A stretch of 64,000 bases of DNA from Fimicolochytrium jonesii (Eukaryota), in contig NW_026515681.1 of NCBI RefSeq assembly GCF_025526975.1, forward strand, positions 124,001 through 188,000, given 5' to 3'. Under the pieces are notes generated by a model that did not search any database, was not told where the DNA came from, and was given only the letters and a program-made list of their open reading frames with translations. Position 1 is the stretch's first letter. The number at the start of each line of letters is the position of its first letter. Of the stretch, positions 5,079-64,000 are shown piece after piece. The position numbers and the translations under genes are program-made.

Positions 5079-6273
5079 TGCCGCTGCCGAGGCCACCTCC
5101 GTAGCCGCACATCCCCCCGCCGTCTACGCCCCCGACCTCTCCACCATTCCAGGCATTGACGCCTATCTCCGCACCTCCCTCCCATGGGTCCTAGGCTCCC
5201 CCCCCCCCCCCCCCCCCCCCTCGCGAAAAGTACAACACCTTTGCGCCCCCCCCCCCCCCCCCCCCCCGGACGAGGAGCCCACCATCGAAACCGAGGGCAG
5301 CGGCGACAGTATTATCAGCGTGTCCGTCAATTTGCAAAGTATGCGACGTTTGAAGAGTTTCCAACCAAAGAAGAGTTTGCGCGCCTCACACGACTTGAGC
5401 GGACCGTCCTCGACGAGTTATGGGCTCTGTCTGCTTCCTCTCCAGGATGAACCGCTTGCGTACAGCCTTGCGGTGGACGCAATGCCATATTTAGGTGAGT
5501 TATGTCCTGTATATTTATCCCCCCCCCCCCCCCCCCCCCCCCGGCGGCTTCCTCTTTTGTCTAATCATGGTCCGCACCTGCCTCATCACAGGTGCCTATT
5601 GTGAGCTCTCACGCCTCTATGAGCGCCGTGGAATGCGGCTGTTTTCGGCTATCCCGCTGCGCAATCTCGAATCCAGTCATCTGTTCGGATCGACACGAGG
5701 ATCCTAGGCACTCATATCCTGGGCTTGAGCCAAAGTCGCATGGAGAAATTCACCAATGAACGCAAGCAGGAGCTGTGGGGGCAGTTTCTCAATGTGAATG
5801 TAAGTCTGTATCGTTTTGCGCTTATTTCAATCACCTCGCTGAATGACGGATTGTAGGACAAGGTCTTCAAGCGTCGAAAGAAGCTTGGTCTCAAGTTTGA
5901 TGGATCAATCTCCACCATTGCTGGCATTGACGCCTATCTCCGCACCCTCCCGCCCGTGGGTCCACCGCTCCCCGCCGGCGAAAAGTACAATCCCCTTGCG
6001 GCCCTGCTGCATCCCCTCCCGGACGAGGAGCCCACCATCGAGCTGGGCAAGGTGTGGTGTTGCCGCTGCCGAGGCCACCTCTGCGGCCGCACATACCCCC
6101 GCCATCTCCGCCCCTGACCTCTCCACCATTGCAGGCATTGACGCCTATCTCCGCACCCTCCCCCCATGGGTCCTACGCTCTCCCCCGGCGAAATGTACAA
6201 TGCCCTTGCGGCCCTGCTGCATCCCCTTCCCGACGAGGAGCCCACCATCGAGCTGGGCAAGGTGTGGTGTTGC
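5079..6273 (+). repeat. ~210-bp direct repeat (units ~5079-5289, partial ~5908-6060, ~6061-6273) interrupted by a Fanzor fragment
   Basis: Recurring blocks CTCCACCATTNCNGGCATTGACGCCTATCTCCGCACC and GACGAGGAGCCCACCATCGA. Confidence 0.8.
5297..5907 (+). pseudogene. Internal fragment (copy C) of the Fanzor1 element
   Basis: Homologous to copy B exons 2-4 (QYYQRVRQFAKYATFEEFPTKEEFARLTRLERTVLDELWAL...GAYCELSRLYERRGMRLFSAIPLR...DKVFKRRKKLGLKFDGS) with frameshifts; retains introns 2 (5495-5591) and 3. Confidence 0.9.
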
Positions 6274-28597: not shown

Positions 28598-29446
28598 TTA
28601 CGGACCTCGCGGGTCGGGATACGCAGGGTTACTCGGCGGTGGGCGTGCATTTCCAACGGCCCCGACCCCCGACCCCGGCCCCACCAGCCTCGCGTCCTCG
28701 ACCCCCAACGGCTCAAAATCATCCTCCGGCAGATTATTATACTGCTGTCTCGCCAGCGGCGCATTCGCTGCGGTCGATGATGCGCCGCCGTCTTTGGGCT
28801 GGAAGGCCTGGTAGAGTTCCTTGAACTTTTTTTTGGCGGTTTCGCCGAGTGCTGTTGCGCCGGCTACGACTTTTTCTTTTGTTTCGCGGAAGGTGGGGCC
28901 GGGGTCGGAATCGGCTGCCTGTTGTTGACGTTGCATGGCTATTATTGAAAGAGGGATGCCTCATCAGCCGTCCAATTCACACATCGCCCTCCATACCGAG
29001 ACGTATACACGATCTAATACATACCCTGAACCTGCTCCCTCTCCTCCTGCTCCAACCGCCTCGCCAGCTCCTCATCTTGCTCCTGTTGCGCCAACGACCT
29101 CGCGAGCGCTTCATCATCATGCACATTCTAGAAAATCACATCCCGCATCAGTTCTCCCCAAATACATGATCCGCACCCCGACGTAATGATTTAAGGTGAC
29201 TTACGATATTCCCCCCTGCTGCACCCGCCCCAGGCACGCCATACAACGCGTCCGTGGCGGTATTGGAGGCCGGGTTCTGCATCTCCAACAACGCGTTAAT
29301 GGTCTGCTCGACGTTGTTGCCGTTGGCGGCCAGCACGGCGTCGAGGACTTCCGCGTCTGTGTCGGGGAAGATTGCGCGGAGTTCCTGTGGAGGGGGTTGA
29401 GACGGGTTGGTGGGAAGTTGGGGATGCAAGGAAACCTTACCTCCAT
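28598..29446 (-). CDS. CUE-domain ubiquitin-binding protein (Cue5-like, multi-exon)
   Basis: ME|ELRAIFPDTDAEVLDAVLAANGNNVEQTINALLEM (CUE FP...LL motif), DEALARSLAQQEQDEELARRL, GETAKKKFKELY. Confidence 0.8.
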
Positions 29447-29839
29447 TTTTGGGACTGGTGGCGGGATATGAAATATGGGGGGGCGTTGGAGCGAGTTGGA
29501 CTTTGTGGGTTCTGCGGGATAATAAGGAGGGTTGCGTTTGCTGCTCGTCGTCGTCGCCGTCGCCGTCGTCCCGTTGAGGGGTGAGTTCTGGGGGAGTTGT
29601 GAGCGCCAAGCCCCGTCCGGTCTTCCCCTCCTGCAGCCGGCGCGACGCGTCCGACGGAACACTTCGGTTTCTCGTGGCTTTCCGTCTGCTCCCGCTACAC
29701 ACAGATACTGTACGTGAACACGCAGCACATAGGGGCAACGTGAGGCACTTCCATTCCTGTATATATAGCTCCGGTATGTGTGCGAATGCTCGTTCAAGTC
29801 ACTTCAGGCGAACAGCAACACTGATCGACCCCCCCTCCA

Positions 29840-29954
29840 CTCCTTTTCAGTTATAGCACTACAAGTTGCCATCATCGGCGATGCCTCCGGCAGAGGTACA
29901 ATGATGTGGATGGCAGATAACCACCACGGAAAATGGGATGGGGTGAAATCTAGA
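29840..29954 (-). ncRNA. Putative omegaRNA of copy A (scaffold plus flank-derived guide starting TGCTATAACTGAAAAGG)
   Basis: ~96 nt between the stop codon and the element end, nearly identical to copy B, with nested stems TGCCATC/GATGGCA and CCTC/GAGG; exact boundaries inferred. Confidence 0.6.
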
Positions 29955-31667
29955 CTACCGGTTACGGGAGAATGCGTCTGGTCTGCGGCCATCGCCAAAC
30001 ACCACCGAACGCACAATCGAGAGGAAATTCTTGGTGCTTAGGACATCCCGATTGTGCATTTTCATCCGTAGTCGTAGTGGTCGTGGTCGTCTTCCAGGAA
30101 TCTCAAATGGCGTCCAGTCTTGGTTGATACATTCGGGGTTGGGGCAACCCACCAATCCATGGACGTATTCCATTCTTCCCGTTCTAGCTTGCCACGGCCG
30201 AGGTGATAGCCGTCGTCGGATGTTTTTCTTCACACGACCTTGGCAGTTGGGGCACACGGACGACGTTCGATACTCATCTAGCAAGTAACATGGAATGCTG
30301 TTTCTTGCAAAGAGTGTGCGGAATCTAAATGCCATGATGAGTTAGCATATTATAGTACATAAAAAACGATGATGGTCACTCACCCCTTGGTCTTTGATGA
30401 CTCCTGAAAGCGCATCGTTTTCCCAGCATCGCTCCAATCACCCAAGATGACCGAAAAATGCTTTCCATACCGGCGTCGCATGTTCTTAATGAGCTTGCTC
30501 TCAGACTTTTGCCGCAGTGAGAACGCCTTGAATCTGCGAGCGACGTGAATCTCATCCCGGTAAAACTCATCCAGGGCGGGATCTGGGATATGGATGGATG
30601 TGAGCCAATGTATTACTAAATTTGAAGATCAAAATTGAAGTAGAACATCATACCCGCATGTACGTGATCCACAATGAACGCTGAGAACGCCTCGATGTTC
30701 ATGCTCTTGTGCGACGGAATATGTGATTCCATCTCAGCGATGCCGGCATTGATCTTTCGCTCTCTCATGTCTCTTTGAAAGTACCGAGACTTTGTCTCGA
30801 CCGCCCGTTGATTGGATGTGTATCTGATATGGGGTGGTGCATTGTGAGGACGCTGCAACGGAATGTCGCCGCAACGGGGATGGCGGAGACGGGGGGCTGG
30901 CGGGCGGAGACGGGGGGCTGGCGGGCGGAGACGGGGGGCTGGCGGGCGGAGACGGGGGGCTGGCGGGCGGAGACGGGGGGCTGGGGGCGGAGACGGGGGG
31001 GGGGGGGGGGGTAGCGGGGACAGCAGGGCAGTAGTGATCAACTGAAACGTACCTAAATGGCCGCTCCTTCTTGATGTCTGGACAGAACAAGAGGTCACGC
31101 TTGCCCGGATCAATGCTGACGATGTTTGGAGCCTCCCTTAGTTTGGCGATGTGGTGCTCAAAATACAGCTGTTTGACTTCTTCCCGCATTTGGGCCTTGC
31201 TGCGCTTCCGGGCCCGATACCCATACTTGAGCCCTGGCTTCTTGAAGTGGATGGTAATGGAATACCCGTTTGTGCTGATTGACCCATCGAACTTGAGACC
31301 AAGCTTCTTTCAATGTTTGAAGACCTTGTCCTATAATCCGTCATTCAGCAACGTAATCTGATTGAAATAAGCACATAAGGATAGAGACTTACATTCACGT
31401 TGATAAACTGCCCCCACAGCTCCCGCTTGCGTTCATCAGTGAGTTTTCCCATGGGACGTCTGCTGACATCCAGGATATGAGTACTTAGGATCAGCGTGTC
31501 AATCCGAACACACGACTGGATTCGAGATTTGCGCAGTGGGATAGCGGAAAACAGCCGCATTCCACGGCGCTCATAAAGGCGTGAGAGCTCACAATAGGCA
31601 CCTGTGATGAGGCGAGGTAGGTGCGGACCATGATTAGACAAAACAGGAAGCGGGGGGGGGGGGGGGG

Positions 31668-31946
31668 TTCCGCTTCCTGTCGGCCAGGGGGGGGACCACG
31701 TCGGCCCGGGTCCCGGCGCGCAGCCATTCGGCCAGGTCGGTGTACCAAGCAAGGCACGCGCTTGCGTCGCTTCGCAGCCACGCACAAGCTGGAGGGGGCG
31801 GGGGGGGGGGTTGGGGGGATTCGCTTCCTGTCGGCCGGGGGGGGGGACCACGTCGGCCGGGGTCCCCGCGCGCAGCCTTCCGGCCAGTTCGGCGTACCAA
31901 GCAAGGCCCTTGCTCGTGTCGCTTCGCAGCCACGCACAAGCTGGAG
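31668..31946 (-). repeat. Twin ~127-bp structured repeat units in Fanzor copy A intron 2
   Basis: Units 31668-31794 and 31820-31946 separated by a C-tract. Confidence 0.9.
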
Positions 31947-32293
31947 GGGGGGGGGAGGGGGGGATAATTATACAGGCAGCAACTCACCTAAATATGGCAT
32001 TGCGTCCACCGCAAGGCTGTACGCAAGGGGCTCATCCTGGGGAGGAAACAGAGCCCATAACTTGTCAAGGAGAGTCCGCTCAAGTCGTGTGAGGCCGGCA
32101 AACTCCTCTTCCATTGGGTACTCTTCAAATGTTGCGTACTTTGTGAATTGACGGACACGACAATAATAGTGTCGCTGCTGCGCTCTCCGGAGATGCCGTT
32201 TGACTTCCTTCAAACCAAGCCTTTCATTGACGTAGCGCAGAAACATTTGCATGAAATGCTCGTGTACGTTAACTTTGAGGTTTGTGAGGATGC

Positions 32294-32823
32294 GGTTATG
32301 GACGACGCGTCCATACCATGCGCTTACCTCATGACAGCATCCCAACAGTCAGTCAATGTCAATTCCCTGTCAAAACCTGACATCTGCCAAACCTCGCAGC
32401 CGCACGCAGCCGCGCTACCCCACACCTGCCACTGCCTTCATTTCTCCACGCAGCTGCACGTAGCCACACCTCCCAACACTCGGCGCTTACAAACCCTTCT
32501 CCATACTTCCCCACGTACCCGCCCACAGCCTCAGCGTAGCCACCCCATCCCCAGTCTTCTGTTTCTATGCTTCCCCACCCTTGGCGCTTCTCTTGGCTTC
32601 CCTCTCATTCCGTACCCTCCTGCTTCCCCACGCTTCCCCAGCCTTCCCAGAAAAACATAAATAGCCGCCTCCCCTGAGCTCCCCACTTCCTGATCCCCCA
32701 GCAGATCAACACCAGTTCTTCCTAGTCTTGTTCTAGTTCTTGTTTCGGTCTGAATACCATTACCTGTCAACAACCTGCACCACCAGTCGCCTCTATTTCC
32801 ATCGGCTCCGCCCATTCATAACA
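32294..32823 (+). mobile_element. Solo LTR (530 bp) of the same Ty3/Gypsy family as 61161-61692, inserted in Fanzor copy A
   Basis: Ends (G)GTTATG...CATAACA; 5-bp TSD GATGC (32289-32293, 32824-32828), single GATGC at this site in copy B; shares GTTATGGACGACGCG and CCCCAGCAGATCAACACCAGTTCTTC with the other LTR. Confidence 0.9.
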
Positions 32824-34354
32824 GATGCTCGTAGCCGTGTACGCTGCGGTCGGTTGGCAATTTCGCATGCGGATGGGGGCAAATCCGTGAACATTACAGT
32901 ACTCTTGAACCCGTGGACGCAACTCTTGCGCGATGACCGGATTGCCGTTGTAGCCTGGATTGTTTAGCAGCTCAAATATCATGCTGATGTGCTTGTCCGT
33001 GATGTCCGGGAAATCGTGCAGAGGATGATCAGCTGTGGTGGGCAGACGTAGTAGTCAGGACATTGTTTCAGGAAATATACAGTGTAGTGTACGCCAAAAA
33101 CTCACCAAGGTAGTACTTCAGGAAGAAGGTGGTGTGGCGCGCAAGGATGTGAACATTGCCGATGAATGTTCTGAGGCGCTCCCTTTGAACTTGATTCTGA
33201 TGATTCTGATTATGGATTCGATGAAGGGAAACCTTGGTGCAGGCATGCGTCTGCGGGCGGGGTCGTTGAGCAGGGGGTGGAGGCGGGGGTGGAGGCGGGG
33301 GCTCATACGCCAGGGGTCCACCCGGTGTGCTGGGAAAAAGGAAAGGGATGGGAGCAGGGAGGTTCAACGGACGCTGCAGACCCCTGTCCACGGGTGAAAT
33401 CCCTCGCTGCTGCTGCTGTTGCCCGTCTTCATCGCTGGAGCTCTCGCCAACCATGTCTGCAATTGCTTGGGGCAAGTGGCGATGGACAGAGGGCGGGAGC
33501 TCAAATCGTGGGGGTTGCAATGGTGTGGCTGGCAGACGTATGGGCAATCGCGGGGTAACCGGAGCAACCTTCCTCCTCTTCCGCCGTGGTGTGGTTGCTC
33601 CAGTAAAGATGCCACACCACAGGTGCCCCTGGAGCGCCTGGTGTGATGACATGTTGGCTGTGCTGTGCCTTTTGCGTGCCTGCTAGAGATGAGGTGTTGC
33701 AGGTGATTGCCGTGATAGCTGTGTGTCAAAGAACTCGCGTCAGTGCTGTGGTAATGAAGCTGAGAACGGTGAGGAATTGCGGTTGTTACCTGGTAGCGGT
33801 TGAAGGTGAAAACGGGGATGCTTACTGCCGGGGGGACACGGACGTCGCGGACATGGATCAGAGTAAAGAATGAGGATACCCATACATTCAGCCACACGGC
33901 GTGACAGTTGAGACTCAGAGAAGAGAGGTAAGAGACGCTTGCTTGTGCACACCCACCGGATCACAGCCCATGGATTTTGGCAGCGAAACTGGGGCGGACG
34001 AAAGAGAGAAGGAACATACGGGGGCCCCTCCATCTCACGGGCGGGATGACCCACATTAGGAACCGCAGTTTCATGGCATCGGGGCGAAGAGATAATGGGA
34101 TCCACAGCCGGTTGGGCCCCTTCTCTCTCTCCCTCTCCCTCTCATGTCTGAATCTGAAGCCCGACTTGGGACGGCCATGATGGCGTAATGTGACGCGTCT
34201 CGCTCTCCGACTGTCGAGAACGGAAGGAACGCGCGCCGAACGGGGACCCCGGCAGGAAGGAAGCTCAACACCCCACGACCAACGCAGTCTTTGTGACCGT
34301 ACTGTACTTCTTCTCCACCCCAGCAGACGGCCCTCCATCTCCCACACATCCCTC

Positions 34355-53554: not shown

Positions 53555-53976
53555 GGCATGTCTCGCCCCGTTTTGACCGACCCCGACCCGCTGGTAATTG
53601 GGGGGGCACGGTGCGGGACGATGGCAGGTGGAGAGGAGGTTGAGGGAGGGATGCTGCGACGAAGTTTATACCGCTGTCGGTTTGCGTCCGCTGAGGTGGA
53701 GGCTGTAGAAGCGGGGGTTGACCTTGTGAAAACGTGGGGAAAAAGGGCGAGGTGTTTGTCGCGCGGGAACAGGTCTCCAAAGGTTCCAAAGGTCCTCCCA
53801 ACGATCGCAGCAAACCCCCATCTTGCACGTTCTGCAGGCATACGCTCGCAGTACACATACAGTAACACTATCCACCCCCCAACCCCCTCCGCACTTGCGC
53901 CTCCGATAACTCCCCACGTTCCCACACTCCCCATCCGCCCCCGACCTTCAAGCCACGTCTCTCTCTACTCACCAGA

Positions 53977-55796
53977 ATGAGCGCCCCAGCTCGCAAACGA
54001 GCCCGCATAGAATCAGACGACGAAGGGGAGAACAGTCGGAAAGCAGACGATTCGCTTGATATCTTCAATGTCTTCGACAGCGACGATGATGACGGCGATG
54101 ATGGTGGTGATCATGGTCGCGACGCCAGCACGTCGAAACAGGAGCAGAACGCGCGACCGCGGGGTATAGCGGACGACGATGATGACGACGAGGGCTCGGG
54201 GGAGGAGCTGGATCGCGCCGGGGAGGTGGAGGTGGAGGACGGGCGAGGGGGAGAGCGGGAGAAGGAGCCGCCGCGGAGTACGAATGGGAGTGAGAGCGGG
54301 ACGTCGTCACCACCGCAGCCACCACCACAACCAAAACCGTTCAGCGGCCGCTCGTCCAGCCCGATACCGTTCAACCCTGGAGCGGGTGGTGTTGACACCA
54401 CGAAGGTTGTGCCGTCACAAGTCAGGGAGTTCAACCCAAAGGCGTTCGACGGGTCAGGGCGGGGGGTGGTGGCGACCCACAACAACGCTGCGCCGACTTC
54501 CAGACCGGTGCAGCAGCCACAGGGACGGCCACCACAACCGCCACCATCGGTGTTCAGACTGGAACCCTCTCTGTTCGGGAAGAGACCGGAGGACGACACG
54601 GTGTTGCAGGTGTGCGACTTCTTGTGGCGGAATCTGATTGCGGGAAGGCAGGATGGGGCCATTATTGAGGTATATCGTAGGGGTTTATCGAGCCAGTTTG
54701 GAGACATGTGGCGGATACTGAAGCGTTTTGGGCGCTTGGTGGTGGCAGATTGAGGGGAAACTGGGCCTGATAATAGATAAAGCGACGAATCGGAGGATAC
54801 AGCTGCCTGTACGATCTGAGACTGGTGAGTGAAATGGTGGCCACTAGCTACACTGACTGCACGTAGTAGTCGCCCGTTCAGCAAAACTGACATCACCCTC
54901 GCAATCAACAAAGTGATCTCAAACGAATCAGGCCAATACGTCTTCGACTCCGACATGACACTGGTAAAAAAAAAATCGCCAAATCCCATCTGACTCCTCT
55001 ACCCTAACACCGGTTCCCATTTGTCTGCCCCAATCTCTAGTCACAACATGGCAACTTCAACAAACTCCTCAACTTCTACGTCGAGCAGGGCCAGGGCCGT
55101 CGCGTGCAGTACGCACATACGAAGATCATGGACGAGGTGTACGAGAGCCGCGGGAACAAGGTGCGGGTTTCGACTGACCAGAAAACAAAACAGGTGGGTT
55201 TCATAATCACGCCCCATCTCCCCTACCCCATCAGACCGTCCCCCCAATGTCTCACTCACCTCACCCCCCTCCGATACGTCCCCAATTCAGATTATCGAAT
55301 GCGTCACCAAACGCCGCCTGGCCAACCTCGAAATCCACCTCCCCAACTCGCACCTCGACATCCGCATCACCGTCTCGCTCGAGATCCCCGCCGACCCCTC
55401 CCTGCTCCGTGACCAGATGCGCGACCGCGACCCGCAGCTCCGCCGCGCGAAGGATCGGTTGAGCTATACGCATGAGGCTATTAGGGTCGATTTGACGCAG
55501 GTTGTCAGGGTTGATGTACGTGTAACCTATGTGCCTCTTTGATTCTGACGTGGGGTGGGGTTCGATGGGCAAAGGGTGACAATTTTGAATGTGGGGTTGT
55601 GATTTTTTAGCCATACGGCCGCGAAGAATCGCGCACGCACGAAGTCGAAGTCGAGTTCCTCAACTCGGCACATTTACTGGAAGAAAAGACGAAACGGCAT
55701 GCCGGCCAGCCGGACAATTTCAACGCGTACGTGTCGGTGTTTATGAATAATTTGAGGGGGCTTTGTCGGAAGGCTATCTCGCATGAGTTGCGGTGA
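53977..55796 (+). CDS. CET1: mRNA-capping RNA 5'-triphosphatase, Cet1/CYTH family (multi-exon)
   Basis: IIE|IEGKLG, KVRVSTD, TKRRLANLEIHLPNSHLDIRITVSLE, RRAKDRLSY, RVDLTQV, THEVEVEF; acidic disordered N-terminus. Confidence 0.9.
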
Positions 55797-55871
55797 GGAT
55801 GATGGTCCGGTGGGTATACATAGAGAGAGGGACCCCCGCCGTTTCTTCGATCATGTGTTGATACTCTTTCT

Positions 55872-55986
55872 ACGTGTTGATCGCACTGAGCTACAAGTTG
55901 CCATCATCGGCGATGCCTCCGGCAGAGGTACAATGATGTGGATGGCAGATAACCACCATGGAAAATGGGATGGGGTGAAATCTAGA
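55872..55986 (-). ncRNA. Putative omegaRNA of copy B (scaffold plus flank-derived guide starting CTCAGTGCGATCAACACG)
   Basis: Conserved, foldable 3' terminal ~96 nt; position matches TnpB/Fanzor omegaRNA architecture; boundaries inferred. Confidence 0.6.
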
Positions 55987-58900
55987 CTACCGGTTACGGG
56001 AGAATGCATGTGGTCTGCGGCCATCGCCAAACACCACCGAACGCACAATCGAGAGGAAATTCTTGGTGCTTAGGACATCCCGATTGTGCACTTTCATCCG
56101 TAGTCGTAGTGGTCGTCGTCTTCCAGGAATCTCAAATGGCGTCCAGTCTTGGTTGATACATTCGGGGTTGGGGCAACCCACCAATCCATGGACGTATTCC
56201 ATTCTTCCCGTTCTAGCTTGCCACGGCCGAGGTGATAGCCGTCGTCGGATGTTTTTCTTCACACGACCGTGGCAGTTGGGGCACACGGACGACGTTCGAT
56301 ACTCATCTAGCAAGTAACATGGAATGCTGTTTCTTGCAAAGAGTGTGCGGAATCTAATTGCCATGATGAGTTAGCATATTATAGTACATAAAAAACGATG
56401 ATGGTCACTCACCCCTTGGTCTTTGATGACTCCTGAAAGCGCATTGTTTTCCCAGCATCGCTCCAATCACCCAAGATGACCGAAAAATGCTTTCCATACC
56501 GGCGTCGCATGTTCTTGATGAGCTTGCTCTCAGACTTTTGCCGCAGTGAGAACGCCTTGAATCTGCAAGCGACGTGAATCTCATCCCGGTAAAACTCATC
56601 CAGGGCGGGATCTGGGATATGGATGGATGTCAGCCCATGTATTACTAAATTTGAAGATCAAAATTGAAGTAGAACATCATACCCGCATGTACGTGATCCA
56701 CAATGAACGCTGAGAACGCCTCGATGTTCATGCTCTTGTGCGACGGAATATGTGATTCCATCTCAGCAATGCCGGCATTGATCTTTCGCTCCGTCATGTC
56801 TCTCCGAAAGTACCGAGACTTTGTCTCGACCGCCCGTTGATTGGATGTGTATCTGATATGGGTGGTGCATTGTGAGATTACTACTGCCCTGCTGTCCCCG
56901 CTATCCCCGCTATCCCGGCTATCCCCGCTGTCGCCGCTATCCCTGCTGTCGCCGCTACCGCCATCCCCGCCATCCCCGCTGTCGCCGCTGTCGCCGCTGT
57001 CCCTGCTGTCCCCGCCATCCCCGCCATTCCCGCTACCGCCATCCCCGCCATCCCCGCTGTCGCCGCTGTCGCCGCTACCGACATCCCCGCCATCCCCGCT
57101 ACCGCCATCCCCGCCATCCCCGCTGTCGCCGCTGTCGCCGCTGTCCCCATCCGTGCCCTCCTCAACCCTCCCCGTCCCCGTCCCCACGATGTCCCCACGA
57201 TTCCCCACGATGTCCCCACAATCCCCTTCGTTGGACATTCCGCAATCAGCTGAAACGTACCTAAATGGCCGCTCCTTCTTGATGTCTCGACAGAACAAGA
57301 GGTCACGCTTGCCCGGATCAATGCTGACGATGTTTGGAGCCTCCCTTAGTTCGGCGATGTGGTGCTCAAAATACAGCTGTTTGACTTCTTCCCGCATTTG
57401 GGCCTTGCTGCGCTTGCGCGCCCGATAGCCATACTTGAGCCCTGGCTTCTTGAAGTGGATGGTAACGGAATACCCGTTTGTGCTGGATGACCCATCGAAC
57501 TTGAGACCAAGCTTCTTTCGATGCTTGAAGACCTTGTCCTGCAATCCATCATTCAGCGAGGTGATTGAAATAAAGGATACAGACTTAACTCACATTCACA
57601 TTGAGAAACTGCCCCCACGGCTCCTGCTTGCGTTGATCGGTGAGTTTCCCCATGCGACGGCGGCCCAAGGCCAGGATATGAATGGCTAGGATCGTCGTGT
57701 CGATCCGAACAGATGACTGGATTCGAGATTTGCGCAGCGGGATAGCGGAAAACAGCCGCATTCCACGGCGCTCATAGAGGCGTGAGAGCTCACAATAGGC
57801 ACCTGTGATGAGGCGAGGCAGGTGCGGACCATGATTAGACAAAAGAGGAAGCAGGGGGGGAGGGGGGGGGTTCCGCTTCCTGTCGGCCGGGGGGGGGACC
57901 ACGTCGGCCCGGGTCCCGGCGCGCAGCCATTTGGCCAGGTCGGTGTACCAAGCAAGGCGCTCGCTCGCGTCGCTTCGCAGCCACGCACAAGCTGGAGGGG
58001 GGGGGGGGGGGGTTTGGGGGGGTTCGCTTCCTGTCGGCCGGGGGTGGGACCACGTCGGCCCGGGTCCCGGCGCGCAGCCATTTGGCCAGGTCGGTGTACC
58101 AAGGAAGGCCCTCGCTCGCGTCGCTTCGCAGCCACGCACAAGCTGGAGGGGGGGGGGGGGGGGGGATAAATATACAGGATGCAACTCACCTAAATATGGC
58201 ATTGCGACCACCGCAAGGCTGTACGCAAGGGGCTCATCCTGGGGAGGAAACAGAGCCCATAACTCGTCAAGGAGAGTCCGCTCAAGTCGCGTGAGGCGGC
58301 CAAACTCCTCTTCGGTTGGGTACTCTTCAAATGTCGCATACTTTGTGAATTGATGGACACGCCGATAATACTGTTGGCGCTGCGCTCGGCTAACTCCGGC
58401 TCTCCGAAGATGCAGTACGACTTGCTTCAAACCAAGCCTTTCATTGACGTAGCGCAGAAACATTTGCATGAAATGCTCTTGTAGGTTGACTTTGAGGTTT
58501 GTGAAGATGCTCGTTGCCGTGTATGCTGCGGTCTGTTGGCAATTTCGCATGCGGATGAGGTCGAATCCGTGAACATTACAGTACTCTTGAACCCGTGGAC
58601 GCAACTCTTGCGCGATGACCGGATTGCCGTTGTAGCCTGGATTGTTTAGCAGCTCAAATATCACACTGATGTGCTTGTCAGTGATGTCCGGGAAATCGTG
58701 TAGAGGATGATCAGCTGTGGCGGGCAGACGTGGCAGTCAGGACATTGTTTTATGGGAAATATACAGTGCACCTCAAAAACTCACCAAGGTAGTACTTGAG
58801 AAAGAAGGTGGTGTGGCGCGCAAGGACGTGAACGTTGCCGATGAATGTTGTCAGGCGCTCCCTTTGAGCTTGATTTTGATTATGGATGATTCGGTGAAGC

Positions 58901-59310
58901 GAAGCCTTGGTGCTTGCATGTGTCTGCCGGGGTCGTTGAGCGGGTGGTGGTGGCGGGGGTTCAAGCACCAGGGATCCACCCGGTGTGCTGGGAAAAAGGA
59001 AAGGGATGGGAGCGGGGAGGTTCAACGGACGCTGCAGACCTCTGTCCACTGGTGAAAGCCCTTGCTGCTGGTGCTGCTGCCCATCTTCATCGCCGGAACT
59101 CTCGCCAACCATGTCTGCAATTGCTTGGGGCAAGTGACGTTGGACAGAAGGTGGGAGCTCAAATCGCGGGGGTTGCAATGGTGTGGCTGGCAGACGTATG
59201 GGCAATCGCGGGGTAACCGGAGCAACCTTCCTCCTCTTCCGCCGTGGTGTGGTTGCTCCAGTAAAGATGCCACACCACAGGTGCCCCTGGAGCGCCTGGT
59301 GTGATGGCAT
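55987..59310 (-). CDS. Fanzor1 RNA-guided endonuclease (TnpB-like), 757 aa, 7 coding exons
   Basis: Exons 59310-58785, 58714-58190, 57802-57594, 57538-57261, 56852-56683, 56611-56413, 56353-55987 total 2274 nt with consistent phases. RuvC-I VSIDPGKRDLL, VILGDWS, LLDEYRTSSVCPNC, Zn CPNPEC, RuvC-III HNRDVLSTKNF, terminal RPHAFSR; NLS-like PRRKRRK. Confidence 0.9.
56891..57150. repeat. 9-bp-period minisatellite inside Fanzor copy B intron 4
   Basis: Variants of GCTGTCCCC/GCTGTCGCC/GCCATCCCC; copy A has a 21-bp repeat (GGCGGAGACGGGGGGCTGGCG) in the equivalent intron (30824-31052). Confidence 0.9.
57871..58148 (-). repeat. Twin ~127-bp structured repeat units in Fanzor copy B intron 2
   Basis: Units 57871-57997 and 58023-58148 separated by a C-tract. 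Confidence 0.9.
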
Positions 59311-60513
59311 GATGGCTGTGCTGTGCCGAGACAGGTGATGCAGGTGATTGCCATGATAGCTGTGTGTCAAAGAACTCGCGTCAGTGCTGTGGTAATGAAG
59401 CTGAGAACGGTGAGGAATTGCGGTTGTTACCTGGCGGCGGTTGAAGGTGAAAACGGGGATGCTTACTGCTCACAATTGCGTTGGGAAGGAAGGGGGTTGG
59501 GAAGGAGGGTTGGTATGTAATTGGGGGCCATGATGAGGTGCAATCAAGAGCGTGAGGAGCGCAAAGAGTGAGGAAGAGTAGAGTGAGGATCCCCAGGTTT
59601 TTTACACGCGTGTAAAGGATGTGGGGTAGCCTCCAGGCCAGCTAGCTGGGCAGCTAGGGTAGCTTCTGAGGTTGATTTTGGCTTGTCCACTGCTGATTGC
59701 AGCACCTCCAAGACCACACTCTCCTCCTCTCACACGAAACGTCAAGCGCTCGCAGCGGACGACAGCCCCCTCACCCCCCTGGCCAACGCCCGCCCCCTTC
59801 CAGCTCAAGCCCGGCAACTCACGCAGAGCACTCTCTGAGCACGCTCAGCGCTGACGAGGTGAGTGGCTGCTGTGCTGCCTGGGCGCGCTTGCTTTATGCC
59901 GATCTCGCGGCCCATGTTGAGCACGACCGCTCTTGACTCCCGCAATTGCTTGAGGTGCAGCCTGGATTTGGGCACTCGCGCTGGCCCCATTCTACCAACC
60001 CACTCCCACTCCCATGCCCACGCTACCTGCTATCTATTTCACCCCAACTAACTCACGTACACTCCATTCCCCAGACAAATCACCATGAGAGTGTCAAAGC
60101 CGCGGCGACGTTCCAAGAGCCGGCGCCTACACAGAGAATAGACGGGGCACGGTCCCCAGGCACTTTCCGGTTTGACGTGCGGGGGACGAATTTCTCCCCA
60201 AAATCCATTGAGGGCTGACTAGTACAGCGTGGGGCGAAAATCGTTCCCCTGACGGCGTCGCGGAGAATAGACGGAAGCACCCTTACGCCCTTCACGCTCG
60301 CCCTTACAGCTTCACGCTCTCAGCGCCGTGGTTTACCATTTGGTACGGCTGGTACGTAGGGGGGTAGGCACTACTACCAACATCATACGCTTCCTACTTC
60401 CACCGTGATCGTGAATTGTAACGTGTGATTGTAAAATCTACGCCGCTCCTAGTACGCGCTACTATATATATAAACACCGCTACTGTCTACATACAATGTG
60501 ATGCGACGCGATC

Positions 60514-61160
60514 CTAGTGGTACTCCAACTTCATCATCTCCTCCGTCTTCATCTCGGCATTCACCTCCAGCTTCATCTTCTTCCGGCCCTTCCTTTCCTT
60601 ATCCGCCAACCACTTCTTGCCCTCCTTCTTCTGCAACTCCACCTCCTCATCGTCCATCTTTATATGATGACCATTCCCTTTGCACATGGGGGGCAGGTGA
60701 GGCCAGCGACTGCTAACCATCTCCGCAGCGAGCTTTCCGTCCAACTCCCGGTTGTTGTGAAAGTTCTTGGAACCTTCCAACCCAAGCTCAAACACCTTTT
60801 GATGAGTAAACTGCAAGAATGCATACCGTGTGTCGGCGGGGTCTGAAGCCCACGTCTCCACAAAGTGTTCCAGAGCCTGACTGCGAATGAGCAAAATATC
60901 TCCGGGGCGGTAAGGCAGCATGATACCGAGATCGGGAAGGCAAAATCTTCCACCTTTCGTAAAGGTCCCAAAGCAGCACATCGGTGCCCAGCCGTAAGGG
61001 ATGTCGCGTTTATTGTGATGAGGTGCAATTTGGTGGTTGGCTACCAGAACATTCATGGCATTGACTCAGGGGGCCCTAGTACCAGCCCAGAAGTGCTTCA
61101 AATCCTGCCTGAGGTGGGTCATCGATTGAGTGAGACGGTAATGGGCAATGGGGTCGGTGA
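60514..61160 (-). pseudogene. TET/JBP-like 2OG-Fe(II) dioxygenase, C-terminal part, decayed
   Basis: PHHNKRD..GWAPMCCFGTFTKGGRFCLPDLG..YRPGDILLIRSQALEHFVETW..TRYAFLQFTH; HxD reads HHN, in-frame TGA just upstream of 61056, truncated by an LTR. Confidence 0.7.
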
Positions 61161-61692
61161 TGTTATGATCTCAACGACGGGGGCGGAAGCGAAGTAGAGA
61201 AGACAGGGCGAGTGTGATAGGCGACAAGAGATTGTATTGGCGAAACAAGAAACAAGGACTAGAACAGGAGATGAGAAGAACTGGTGTTGATCTGCTGGGG
61301 AGGAAGGGAATGGACGAAGAGAGGCCGGCTATTTATAGATAGGCAACCCAGCAGATCAGAGAACAACAACAACAAGAGGGGACTGGGGGGCGCCAGCTAT
61401 GCTCCTAGAGCGTGCGTGGCGAGCGTAGAGAGCATTGCTACAGCTGCTGGCTATGGGGAAGCAGTGGGGGGTGTGGAGAAGCCGAGGGGGGATTGGCAAA
61501 ATGAGAGGAGAGAGGAGGAGTGGCGATATTGCAAGAGGATTGGCGAAATGAGAGGAGAGAGGGGGAGTGGTATTGACATTGACACTGACATTGACACTGA
61601 CATTGACATTGACATTGGCGTTTGACATTTGGCGGTTGACATTGGCGGCTGTCAGTAGGTAAGCTTATCGTATGGGCGCGTCGTCCATAACA
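61161..61692 (-). repeat. 3' LTR (532 bp) of the Ty3/Gypsy element
   Basis: TGTTATG...CATAACA ends, preceded on the minus strand by a polypurine tract (AAAGAGAGGGG); internal TATAAATA. Confidence 0.9.
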
Positions 61693-64000
61693 TCACCCCT
61701 CTCTTTAGCGGCGGCGGCGGCGGCGTCGAGTTTGGTGTGGCCGCAGAGGGGGTGCTACGGGGACAGAGGAAGGCTTGTTGGGGTACGCGCTGTGGAAGTC
61801 CTGGAGGAGTGCGTCGGTATGGGTGAGGTGTTCCACGGGCTCCCAGGTGTTCTCGGGGTCAGGCCAGCCCTGCCATTTGACCAAGTACTGAAGGCGACGA
61901 CAATGGATGCGAGAGTCAAGGATGGCTTCGACAACCCACTCTTCTTGACCCTCAACGGTCTCTGGGGGCGCGGGTTTGGGTTCGTGTCGTTCGGGGATGG
62001 TGAAGCGGGGTTCGAGGAGCGAGACATGGAAGACATCGTGGATTTTGTACGTAGGCGGGAGCTTGAGCCGGTAGGCAACGGGATTGATTTTTTCAACGAG
62101 TGGTTGAGTTTCTGAGAGGGCCGGGTTGTCTGGAGGTTTTTGCGGAGGAGCCAGACGTGGTCGCCAGGCTTGAAGTCCGGTCCAGGAATTTGTTTAGCGT
62201 CGGCGTAGCGCTTCATTCGATCTTGGGCTTCCTTGAGCTCAAGGGCGAGCTGTTCATGGACTTCCCTGATTTGTTTAGCGCGGGCTTCAGCGGCGGGGTT
62301 GACGGATTCGGAGGTAGCAGAGGCCGCGAAACTGAAGCGGGGGTGGAGACCCTTGTTGGCGTAGAAGGGGGTGGTCTGGGAGGCGGACTGGTGGGTGTTG
62401 TTGTAGGCAAACTCGGTGGACGACAGAAGCTGTTTCCAGTTGTCCTGTTGGTGGTTGCAAAAGCATCGGAGATACTGCTCCAGGATCTGGTTGGTGCGTT
62501 CCGTCTGGCCATCGCTCTGGGGGTGGAAGGCCGAGGAGAGGTTGGCTTTTGCCCGAAGGAGTTCGAGAAGTCGACGCCAGAACCGGGACTTAAACTCGGG
62601 TCCTCGGTCAGAGATGACGTCGTCGGGGAGGCCGTGGAGACGGATGATGTTGTGGAAGACTAGGTCGGCGGTGGATTTGGCGGATTCTGACTCGCTGCAG
62701 GCGATGAAGTGGGCCATCTTGGTGAGGCGACAGTTGACGTTCAGGATGGAGTCGTACCCGTCCACGGGAGGCAGACCGGTGATAAAGTCCAGGGACCAAG
62801 ATCCCCAAGGGCGGGTAGGGATACTGTTAGGGCTGGAGTAGGCCATATGGTTTGTGTCGACTGGATTTCGCTTGGCTACAGGACAGGTATCGCAGGACTT
62901 GTGGTAGGCCTTGACGAAGCGCCACTGGCTGTGCCACCAGTAGTTGCGGGAGGCGAGTTCGAGCGTCTTGGACATCCCAAAGTGGCCGGCTAGGGGTGTA
63001 TCGTGCATGTCGTGGCAGACTTCAGCTCGGAGCTCGTTGGTGGGGACATAGACCGGGTTATCGTGCAGCAGGATCCCATCTTCATCTGAGAACCGCTTGA
63101 TACGATCTTGGGTTTCCTCGGTTCGTTGGGCGAGGGGTATCTTGAGCTTTTTGCGAATGGTCTTAGCGAGGGGATCAGAGGCCTGGGCGGCCTTAATCTT
63201 GTCAAGCAGCATGGTATCCATGGGTGTGAGGTAGGCCGCGGCGAGTCAAAGGCGTTCGGGAGTCAAAATTGTGGTTGCCTGGGAGCGGAACACTTCTTCC
63301 CCCTTTTTTAGCTCATGTTCGGAGCGTCGGGAGAGGGCATCGGCTTGGTGCTGCTGGGAACCGGGGCGATAGGTAATGACAAAGTCAAAATCCGAGAAGA
63401 ATATCGACCAGGGGGCTTGGCGGCGGTTCAGGGTGCGGGTGGTCATGAAGTACTGAAGGTTTTTATGGTCGGAGTAAACGGTGATCTTGTGACGGGCGCC
63501 AAGGAGATGGTGTTGCCACTGGGCAAAGGAGTCTTGGATGGCCAGAAGTTCCTTGTCGTAGATCTCGTAGTTGATCTCTTCGGCCGTGAATTTGCGAGAG
63601 TGGAAGGCCACGGGTTGGAGCTGATTGTCCTGGTCAGGTTGGAGGAGAACTGCGCCAAGAGCGAAGTCGGAGGCGCCAGTTTCGACGACGAAGGTCTTCT
63701 CTGGGTCAGGGTGAGCAAGGATGGGGGCGGTGGTGAATGCTTTCTTCAGGTTCTCGAAGGCTGTGTTTGCGGCGGGTGTCCAGGCATACGGGATGTCTTT
63801 CCGGGTCAGGGCTGTGAGCGGGGTAGCGATCTTGGAATAACCTTGGATGAATCGGCGATAGAAGTTGGCAAAGCCGAGGAACCGCTGGACGCCTTTGACA
63901 GTCTTGGGAGGTTCCCAATCCGTGATGGCAGCGATCTTCTTGGGGTCCATCTGGATGCCTTTCTCGGAGATGATGAAGCCTACGAACTCAACAGATTCGC
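61161..64000 (-). mobile_element. Ty3/Gypsy chromovirus retrotransposon (RT end, RNase H, integrase, chromodomain; degenerate; continues past the window)
   Basis: VQRFLGFANFYRRFI, ETGASDFALGAVL, NYEIYDKELLAI, SDHKNL, HDTPLAGHFG, DFITGLP, SDRGPEF, HPQSDGQTERTNQ; chromodomain EEWVVEAILDSR..QYLVKWQGW..NTWEP in a shifted frame; in-frame stop at 63246. Confidence 0.95.

What the first reader, a model, noticed from the sequence alone, without database searches (positions are those of the whole stretch)
55891..59469. Apparently intact, six-intron Fanzor1 element with omegaRNA-like 3' end
Seen: seven exons with canonical GT-AG introns join in phase into a stop-free 757-aa protein with all RuvC motifs. 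The canonical RuvC-II Glu position reads G (GDWS) and the alternative Glu is in DEYRTS; there is a CxxC...CxxxxC zinc site and an NLS-like PRRKRRK. The ORF track shows only disconnected pieces, so automatic annotation would likely miss it. Known: Fanzors are eukaryotic TnpB-derived RNA-guided nucleases. Inference: this is a candidate active nuclease of a possibly uncharacterised family, with three relatives within 60 kb.
Basis: partly seen in the sequence, partly recalled or inferred. Interest (0 to 1): 0.85.

Follow-up and report, generated by a model that had tools for sequence, protein, structure and literature searches.

The report
Intron-rich chytrid relative of SpuFz1 nuclease
A soil chytrid fungus carries a multi-copy jumping-gene family that encodes a close, six-intron relative of the known RNA-guided DNA cutter SpuFz1; this copy has an unbroken reading frame but signs of decay, and the family likely reads a different target motif, which would make it a candidate editing enzyme rather than a new kind of system.

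Summary
The anatomy is real. Seven minus-strand exons (59310-55987) joined at six GT-AG introns give a stop-free 757-aa protein with D494, E653, D728, G617 at the canonical Glu site, a C4 zinc site and PRRKRRK. It is not an uncharacterised family. It is a Fanzor1 of the SpuFz1 group, 45% identical to SpuFz1. The host is Fimicolochytrium jonesii, where 61 annotated models on at least 31 contigs belong to the family. Annotation already covers this locus in part (residues 468-757) and a paralog in full. The last 75 nt resemble the SpuFz1 omegaRNA scaffold: TTTTCC start, 7-8-bp first stem, TA end. Unlike SPu-1 it has six introns, shows no terminal inverted repeat, and two of its TAM-contact residues differ (R96G, N133A), so a TAM other than CATA is likely. 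'Intact' needs caution. This copy has private changes at conserved residues (L412P, I438S, D345V), a broken basal stem pair and an out-of-frame upstream ATG. The window holds two other copies, not three, both defective. Splicing, guide RNA and cleavage were not tested on RNA or at the bench. Verdict: new member of a known kind.

The parts
59311..59469 (-). 5' leader shared with copy B; its upstream limit (GCAG-TA) is the candidate but unproven left end; no inverted repeat of the right end
   Evidence: homology with copy B stops at 59469/33828; best match to the reverse complement of the right end within 2 kb upstream is 16 of 30, shuffle mean 16.1
   Evidence: donor CAG|GTAACA, branch CTGAC at 59384, acceptor ACACAG at 59360, all kept in copy B; inferred, no RNA data
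59022..59354 (-). out-of-frame upstream ATG (A at -3, G at +4) opening a 110-codon frame that overlaps the Fanzor start; absent from copy B, which has ACG
58785..59310 (-). exon 1: predicted-disordered N-terminal ~130 aa, then start of WED/REC
   Evidence: pLDDT <50 for residues 1-132 of paralog P0023
59227..59247 (-). NLS-like PRRKRRK (residues 22-28)
   Evidence: present in 14 of 14 fetched proteins that begin with the family's N-terminus; function untested
58715..58784 (-). intron 1 (70 nt, phase 1)
   Evidence: ends kept in copy B
58190..58714 (-). exon 2: REC domain; Q235/Q236 = SpuFz1 Q129/Q130; G202 and A239 replace R96 and N133
57803..58189 (-). intron 2 (387 nt) holding two tandem 151-bp units between poly-C tracts; fragment C has a 97-nt intron without them
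57594..57802 (-). exon 3 (WED); carries private L412P
57539..57593 (-). intron 3 (55 nt, phase 0)
   Evidence: GT-AG kept in copies B and C
57261..57538 (-). exon 4: WED (private I438S; Y456 = SpuFz1 Y345) and RuvC-I D494 (codon 57317-57319)
56853..57260 (-). intron 4 (408 nt), 9-bp minisatellite interior, inverted relative to copy B; donor and acceptor ends untouched
56683..56852 (-). exon 5 (RuvC helices)
   Evidence: used in annotated model P0020
56612..56682 (-). intron 5 (71 nt, phase 1)
56413..56611 (-). exon 6: G617 at the canonical RuvC-II Glu position (= SpuFz1 G505) and lid loop
56354..56412 (-). intron 6 (59 nt, phase 2)
55987..56353 (-). exon 7: alternative Glu E653 (56302-56304), C660/C663/C696/C701 zinc site, RuvC-III D728 (56077-56079), stop
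55892..55966 (-). predicted 75-nt omegaRNA scaffold: TTTTCC, stem-loop 1 with a TTATC loop, linker, uncertain stem 2, ending in TA
   Evidence: compared by eye with SpuFz1, SPu-2 and PpFz1 sequences; folds; 1 mismatch in 96 nt to copy B
55877..55891 (-). predicted ~15-nt guide, read from flanking host DNA (differs between copies A and B after one shared G)
   Evidence: guide length by analogy to SpuFz1
29859..33828 (-). copy B: full-length, dead (TGA at codon 427; 535-nt LTR-like insertion in exon 2 between GCATC repeats)
5291..5910 (+). fragment C: exon 2 end to exon 4 start with introns 2 and 3, lodged in an unrelated local repeat

Best explanation
This is one copy of a multi-copy Fanzor1 element of the SpuFz1 group in the chytrid Fimicolochytrium jonesii, with six predicted introns in an unbroken 757-codon frame, that likely makes an RNA-guided DNA nuclease but is probably already decaying. 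Shown: exon structure and open frame, catalytic and zinc residues matching SpuFz1 one for one, multi-copy status, a sharp right end shared with a second copy, and no transposase ORF inside the shared region. Inferred by homology: the mRNA is spliced and the protein enters the nucleus through its N-terminal basic motif. It binds an omegaRNA made of the last 75 nt of the element plus about 15 nt of flanking host DNA, and cuts double-stranded DNA where a TAM precedes the guide match, i.e. at an empty copy of its own insertion site, so that repair copies the element back (restorative homing). A transposase supplied in trans would move it; none was identified. The TAM probably ends in TA but differs from CATA. 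Odds that this very copy yields active nuclease: about 0.35; that some copy of the family does: about 0.75.
For: 45.1% identity to SpuFz1 over 618 aligned residues, BLASTP E 1e-161; D383/E541/D606 = D494/E653/D728; H21, K25, Q129, Q130, R291, Y345, R387, R414, R531, W570 kept. AlphaFold model of paralog P0023 (89.5% identical) matches SpuFz1 structures at E 1.4e-48, TM 0.70/0.86, then PpFz1 and GtFz1, with Cas12f far behind. Among 60 other F. jonesii models, D494 is kept in 33 of 34 that cover it, E653 in 45 of 45, D728 in 40 of 40. pN/pS between copies A and B is 0.34 (exons 1-4) and 0.30 (exons 5-7), and all exon indels keep the frame apart from the LTR-like insertion (crude count). Junctions 1-6 are collinear at >=7/10 identity in 5 of 9, 7 of 12, 16 of 21, 25 of 28, 37 of 39 and 43 of 45 annotated proteins that span them, out of 52 examined. 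Splice dinucleotides are kept in copy B and, for introns 2 and 3, in fragment C. The 3' end: 75 nt from just before TTTTCC to a TA at the homology break, the same length and end as the SpuFz1 scaffold; 19 of the first 36 positions identical to it without gaps (by eye); stem-loop 1 of copy B folds at z -3.7, 0 of 200 shuffles as stable.
Against: Private changes in this copy at conserved columns: L412P (L in 27 of 27 paralogs; L or I in 20 of 20 outgroups; inside a predicted helix), I438S (30 of 30; I or V in 20 of 20), D345V (14 of 14), A227D/P228L, V253L, R296H. Its burden, 4 of 183 strongly conserved columns, is like that of other long paralogs (3-4 of 183), so all may be ageing copies. The basal pair of stem-loop 1 is lost here (z -1.74 vs -3.70), and a rival helix pairing the linker with stem 2 dominates the predicted ensemble (p about 0.95). 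The whole 75-96-nt tail folds no better than shuffles (z about -0.5). An out-of-frame upstream ATG is present here and not in copy B. The annotated model of this locus starts only at M468. No terminal inverted repeat and no clear target-site duplication, so the mobilising enzyme and the left end are unknown. The junction support comes from gene predictions, mostly of paralogs, not from reads.
Confidence: 0.85

Rival explanations
1. This copy is a fully active nuclease gene, and the private substitutions are tolerated.
For: Open 757-codon frame, all catalytic and zinc residues present, all splice sites canonical; conserved-column burden no higher than in other long paralogs; 3' part about 98% identical to copy B, so recently copied or converted.
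Against: L412P in a predicted helix and I438S in a WED strand at near-invariant columns; weakened stem-loop 1; upstream out-of-frame ATG.
Confidence: 0.35
2. The whole family is a dead relic: it spread earlier, lost its inverted repeats and is now decaying under methylation, with no copy active.
For: Both other copies in the window are broken; most annotated models are partial (only 7 of 60 reach from residue 200 or earlier through all three catalytic residues); 55 of 98 A/B transitions fall at CpG-context sites that are 15% of 3110 aligned sites (the context definition inflates this); no inverted repeats.
Against: Catalytic residues are almost perfectly kept across 34-45 models; pN/pS about 0.3; short branches among paralogs (0.02-0.1 changes per column); a full-length six-junction paralog exists; CpG o/e of the coding sequence is 0.95, like host genes.
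Confidence: 0.2
3. The Fanzor gene is cargo at the right end of a larger transposon whose left part lies further upstream (for example one that also carries the TET/JBP-like gene at 60514-61135), and copy B is a 5'-truncated derivative; the shared 5' limit is then a truncation point, not a left end.
For: No left-end inverted repeat at the shared limit; the limit lies 3 nt before a good splice donor and about 40 nt before another, leaving little room for a promoter; a TET/JBP-like frame lies 1 kb upstream on the same strand (Pfam E 0.057; Atlas 0.93); Fanzor1 is known to be captured by many transposon superfamilies.
Against: The DNA upstream of either copy occurs nowhere else in the window. The non-Fanzor parts of annotated fusion models are unrelated to each other, with one tyrosine-recombinase-like, one CHZ and one CUE neighbour. 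The leader is 159 nt, close to the distance from left end to ATG in SPu-1 (by eye).
Confidence: 0.2
4. Introns 2 and 4 are retained or alternatively spliced, giving a longer protein with low-complexity inserts.
For: Both are multiples of three (387, 408 nt) and open in frame here.
Against: In copy B they are 386 and 229 nt and in fragment C intron 2 is 97 nt, so frame is not kept; intron 4 is inverted between copies; 25 of 28 annotated proteins skip intron 4; relatives have no insert at these positions.
Confidence: 0.04

Closest known systems
SpuFz1 / SPu-1 element of Spizellomyces punctatus (Saito et al. 2023 PMC10432273; Bao and Jurka 2013 PMC3627910; PDB 8GKH, 9CEU-9CEZ)
   Same: Same fungal order. 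45% identity over the whole folded part, same triad, zinc site and lid, most RNA/DNA-contact residues kept. 75-nt 3' tail starting TTTTCC and ending TA. Multi-copy, no transposase inside.
   Different: Six coding introns against a single ORF; about 115 extra N-terminal residues, predicted disordered, with an NLS-like motif; no 30-33-nt terminal inverted repeat found; R96 to G (with a 5-residue deletion just before it) and N133 to A family-wide; N385 to G (DPG, the common Fanzor signature per Yoon et al.); R260, R420 also changed.
Uncharacterised Fanzor1 proteins of Gaertneriomyces sp. JEL0708 (KAJ3177236.1) and Phlyctochytrium arcticum (KAI9089618.1)
   Same: Nearest neighbours in the tree: F. 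jonesii clade + Gaertneriomyces SH-aLRT 100, plus P. arcticum 96 (quick tree); 53% identity for Gaertneriomyces.
   Different: 637 and 660 aa, no long N-terminal extension, DPN motif; their exon structure and ends could not be seen.
PpFz1 of Parasitella parasitica (Xu et al. 2024 PMC11423790; PDB 9CF0-9CF3)
   Same: Fanzor1 fold (E 8.8e-29); omegaRNA stem-loop 1 of 7 bp with a TTATC-containing loop, as here.
   Different: About 20% identity, 849 aa, TAM ATN.
Multi-exon Fanzor1 elements, e.g. CRe-1/2/3 (CrFNuc, Helitron2) and AMa-3 of Allomyces (7 exons)
   Same: Spliceosomal introns in a Fanzor1 gene; CRe elements also lack true terminal inverted repeats.
   Different: Not close relatives in my searches; no Helitron-type termini seen here.

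Membership tests
Fanzor1 | D-X(125,275)-[TS]-[TS]-X-X-C4 zinc finger-X(5,50)-RD motif (Bao and Jurka) | tested here: met
   D494, T656-S657, C660/663/696/701, R727-D728 (motif text)
Fanzor1 | Canonical RuvC-II Glu lost; alternative Glu six residues before the zinc finger | tested here: met
   G617 and E653 align with SpuFz1 G505 and catalytic E541
Fanzor1 | Enlarged REC/WED/RuvC/TNB architecture, unlike compact TnpB/Fanzor2 | tested here: met
   model of paralog P0023 (not of this copy) matches SpuFz1, PpFz1, GtFz1 first
Fanzor1 | Eukaryotic, multi-copy, borne by a mobile element | tested here: met
   61 F. jonesii models on at least 31 contigs; sharp shared right end with unrelated flanks in 2 of 2 copies that have it
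Fanzor1 | omegaRNA scaffold at the right end with a 7-bp first stem-loop, followed by a variable guide | tested here: inconclusive
   sequence and stem-loop 1 fit; stem 2 ambiguous; whole tail not more stable than shuffles; no Rfam match; only two copies
Fanzor1 | omegaRNA expressed and bound; guide- and TAM-dependent dsDNA cleavage | not testable with these tools
   bench work needed
SPu-1 element (Mariner-like, non-autonomous) | 30-33-nt terminal inverted repeats | tested here: not met
   none at the shared 5' limit or within 2 kb upstream of either copy; truncation not excluded
SPu-1 element (Mariner-like, non-autonomous) | TA target-site duplication preceded by CA | tested here: inconclusive
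   TA lies near both limits, but preceded by GCAG and followed by G in both copies; empty sites not available
SPu-1 element (Mariner-like, non-autonomous) | Single-exon ORF | tested here: not met
   seven exons against one
Helitron-borne Fanzor1 | 5' TC and 3' CTRR ends, or Helitron2 asymmetric repeats with insertion after TTTT | tested here: not met
   shared limits read GCAG... and ...TTGTAG; flanks are not TTTT (features)
Replitron | Short direct terminal repeats and a Rep HUH transposase | tested here: inconclusive
   only a 3-nt GTA is shared by the two ends; no Rep search was run; features

The most novel reading that the evidence does not exclude
The F. jonesii family is a still-active Fanzor1 lineage that gained six or seven introns, shed its terminal inverted repeats and rewired its TAM reader (R96G with a shortened loop, N133A) to a G/C-containing motif such as (GC)AGTA. 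It reached at least 31 contigs without a Mariner-type end, through an unrecognised transposase or through its own cut-and-repair activity. It would be a natural SpuFz1 variant with new targeting range and a test case for how Fanzors spread without inverted repeats.
Probability: 0.15. Interest if true: 0.7.

Novelty: new member of a known kind. Interest (0 to 1): 0.38.

Why it matters
SpuFz1 is the structurally best understood Fanzor1 and has been engineered for editing, but it is tied to a CATA motif that tolerates no change. A 45%-identical ortholog that keeps the catalytic core yet changes two of the five side chains reported to hydrogen-bond the TAM is a ready natural probe of TAM recognition and may widen the target range. 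The family also offers dozens of genomic copies in which right ends, guides, target sites and intron gain can be read directly. None of this overturns current understanding: intron-bearing, NLS-bearing Fanzor1 genes are described.

Tried and rejected
No whole genome is held for this window, so other copies could be seen only as annotated proteins, and ends, empty sites and ghost elements could not be compared. Sequencing runs: no RNA holder was listed; this is no evidence either way, and no reads were laid. Pfam on single exons and on five paralogs gave only sub-threshold zinc-ribbon hits (Cas12f1-like TNB E 0.029); the copy held has no model that hits SpuFz1 itself; the precomputed label PF26935 could not be named. 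Rfam: one chance match, E 0.17. Terminal inverted repeats: none above shuffles. Targets for the two predicted guides inside the window: no off-locus match with fewer than 2 mismatches in 13 nt. Retained-intron idea rejected. DPG instead of SpuFz1's DPN was considered as a defect and rejected: it is family-wide (33 of 34), common among distant hits (44 DPG-only vs 65 DPN-only of 141) and the usual Fanzor signature. A 3' over-representation of copies was not claimed, because my first search used exon 7 as bait. Metagenome loci: 7 found from 72 pattern matches; none gave usable ends. Viral contigs gave 3 distant hits, 21-22%. The careful tree did not finish; the quick tree is quoted. PDB sequence search for the TET/JBP-like frame found nothing. 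Earlier findings of this scan: none by place or sequence. Prior description: no occurrence of Fimicolochytrium, jonesii, EV422DRAFT or Gaertneriomyces in the supplements of Saito et al. (one scanned PDF not searched; no positive-control term run) or in 2 files of Jiang et al. (uninformative, since Spizellomyces was also absent there). Of 17 papers naming Fimicolochytrium, 15 were listed and none has a Fanzor title (listing only). Lists in supplements I could not see, and Repbase, may hold this family.
Full report
Observation. The finding lies on the minus strand. The window holds two relatives, not three. B has a stop at codon 427 and a 535-nt LTR-like insertion in exon 2. C is a 620-bp internal fragment at 5291-5910.

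Host and annotation. A search with exon 7 returned 13 proteins of 565 candidates, all from Fimicolochytrium jonesii, order Spizellomycetales. Cluster look-ups and a second search raised this to 61 named models on at least 31 contigs, counted by hand from distinct contig lengths; some are split models of one locus. P0020 (EV422DRAFT_587913) is 100% identical to residues 468-757, so this locus is annotated, as a 5'-truncated gene using junctions 4-6. P0023 (EV422DRAFT_39733, 761 aa) is 89.5% identical and collinear over all six junctions. Of 52 proteins examined, those spanning junctions 1-6 were collinear at >=7/10 identity in 5 of 9, 7 of 12, 16 of 21, 25 of 28, 37 of 39 and 43 of 45 cases. 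These are predictions, mostly for paralogs; no RNA reads were seen.

Identity. P0023 matches SpuFz1 (8GKH) in one stretch at E 4.6e-149, PpFz1 at 2.4e-37 and GtFz1 at 2e-4. The window protein is 45.1% identical to SpuFz1 (P0060) over 618 aligned residues. D494, E653 and D728 fall on the catalytic D383, E541 and D606 named in Saito et al. and Xu et al., and G617 on G505. An AlphaFold model of P0023 (mean pLDDT 75.5; residues 1-132 below 50) finds SpuFz1 first (E 1.4e-48, TM 0.70/0.86), then PpFz1, GtFz1 and, far behind, Cas12f. In a quick tree of 40 rows the 10 F. jonesii rows form one group (SH-aLRT 100), sister to a Gaertneriomyces protein and then a Phlyctochytrium one, inside a 34-row group that also holds the S. 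punctatus proteins. A library-wide search found 1841 representatives at E<=0.001. So this is the SpuFz1 neighbourhood, not an unknown family.

What differs from SPu-1. (1) Introns. SPu-1 is a single ORF, and in seven metagenomic relatives the six positions are uninterrupted wherever covered; three of those loci (two identical) have one intron at a different, shared site. The six introns are therefore most simply gains in the F. jonesii lineage; the state in Gaertneriomyces is unseen. An earlier AI note says SPu-3 has an overlooked intron (e1-9511500, not tested). Multi-exon Fanzor1 genes are common knowledge. (2) TAM reader. Of the side chains reported to hydrogen-bond CATA (R96, Q129, Q130, N133, R291) and the unwinding Y345, R96 is G in 14 of 16 paralogs and N133 is A in 19 of 20; Q129, Q130 and Y345 are kept and R291 is variable. 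A five-residue deletion precedes the R96 position. A TAM other than CATA is the inference. (3) Ends. SPu-1 has 30-33-nt inverted repeats and TA duplications. Here the best upstream match to the right end is 16 of 30, equal to the shuffle mean. Both copies begin GCAG-TA and end TA-G before diverging. If TA is the duplication, the shared GCAG would be the target motif. Two copies cannot settle this, and the 5' limit may be a truncation: it lies next to two splice donors that, with a CTGAC branch site and an acceptor at 59360, mark a probable leader intron.

The 3' tail. From one base before TTTTCC to the TA at the homology break is 75 nt, the length of the SpuFz1 scaffold, which also starts NTTTTCC and ends TA. 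By eye, 19 of the first 36 positions are identical without gaps. In SpuFz1, SPu-2 and PpFz1 the (T)TCC start is followed by a 7-bp stem with a short loop beginning TT. Here different bases form a 7-8-bp stem round TTATC; in copy B it folds at z -3.7 with 0 of 200 shuffles as stable (the 30-nt stretch was chosen after seeing the stem). The pattern TTTCC-N7-TTRTC occurs only at these two places in the window (pattern made post hoc). Against: the whole tail is no more stable than shuffles, stem 2 has competing folds, and Rfam has no match. I rate it a probable omegaRNA.

Is this copy alive? The family has been under selection: catalytic residues are kept in 33 of 34, 45 of 45 and 40 of 40 models and pN/pS between A and B is about 0.3. 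But this copy has private changes at L412 (to P), I438 (to S), D345, A227/P228, V253 and R296. L412 and I438 are invariant in 27 and 30 paralogs and hydrophobic in all 20 outgroups, and lie in a predicted helix and strand. Its stem-loop 1 has lost the basal pair (z -1.74). An ATG in good context 44 nt upstream, where B has ACG, opens a 110-codon frame across the start codon. Other long paralogs carry a similar load (3-4 of 183 conserved columns), as expected of copies that age after insertion. I put activity of this copy at about 0.35.

Mechanism. By homology with SpuFz1, and following the review PMC13565253: spliced mRNA, nuclear import, an omegaRNA that runs about 15 nt into flanking DNA, cleavage of the empty insertion site, and restoration by gene conversion. 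All steps are inferred. The A/B comparison is a mosaic: 1-3% divergence from exon 5 to the right end, introns included, against 4-12% upstream. This points to recent conversion or recombination between copies, which fits break-induced copying but does not prove it.

Literature seen. Saito 2023 (PMC10432273): passages, sections 7 and 10, supplement search. Xu 2024 (PMC11423790): passages, Table S3. Bao and Jurka 2013 (PMC3627910): passages, supplement 1, supplement search (files 13-14 not searched). Jiang 2023 (PMC10530073): passages, supplement search. Yoon 2023 (10.1101/2023.08.09.552727), Craig 2023 (PMC10288648) and PMC13565253: passages. Searches listed no paper on a F. jonesii Fanzor (listings only); supplements I could not read may list it.

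Verdict. Real and correctly named; a new member of a known kind, with worthwhile but incremental novelty in its probable TAM change, intron gains and unresolved ends. Interest 0.38.

Noticed in passing
window 56853-57260 vs 30824-31052: The interior of intron 4 is inverted between copies A and B with splice signals left intact; annotated paralog P0034 shows A-like repeat content in B's orientation, so A probably carries the derived inversion.
   Followed up: partly
window 57864-58163 and 31652-31963: Two tandem 151-bp GC-rich units sit between poly-C tracts in intron 2 of copies A and B but not in fragment C; origin unknown, no Rfam match.
   Followed up: partly
window 55891-56852 vs 29859-30823: The 3' kilobase of copies A and B is about 98% identical, introns included, while the 5' part is about 90%: a recombination or conversion breakpoint near intron 4.
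   Followed up: partly
window 5079-6274: Fragment C, with its introns, interrupts a local 150-210-bp repeat, with short shared sequence at the right junction; looks like a DNA-templated repair insertion.
   Followed up: no
window 60514-61135 (-): TET/JBP-like dioxygenase frame (Pfam E 0.057; Atlas hits 0.93 to Tet_JBP clusters), cut at its 5' side by a gypsy-type LTR; such genes are often transposon-borne in fungi (recalled).
   Followed up: partly
window 61135-64000 (-): 3' part of a chromodomain-bearing Ty3/gypsy-type element (integrase ORF 61755-63245, labels read by eye); its LTR is 60% identical to the 535-nt insertion in copy B.
   Followed up: partly
window 60183-60250 and 59591-59626: Two short imperfect inverted repeats upstream of the element: about 19-nt arms around a central TA (seen by eye), and an 18-nt-arm hairpin with no spacer; possibly ends of another element.
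   Followed up: no
window 53866-55800 (+): Host mRNA-capping triphosphatase gene (Pfam mRNA_triPase E 1.7e-22 for 55207-55539) ends roughly 0.1 kb from the element's right end, convergent with it; the predicted guide is read from this 3' region.
   Followed up: partly
L001:4378-4443; L003:388-561 (approximate): Two distinct metagenomic SpuFz1-like genes share one phase-1 intron after the NLR(V/L) motif, a position not used in F. jonesii; L001's tail also starts TTTTCC and reaches TTGTA about 75 nt later.
   Followed up: partly
window 29000-29800 (-): Annotated model P0039 fuses dead copy B to the neighbouring CUE-domain gene; several other models fuse Fanzor exons to unrelated neighbours, a source of false domain fusions in databases.
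   Followed up: partly
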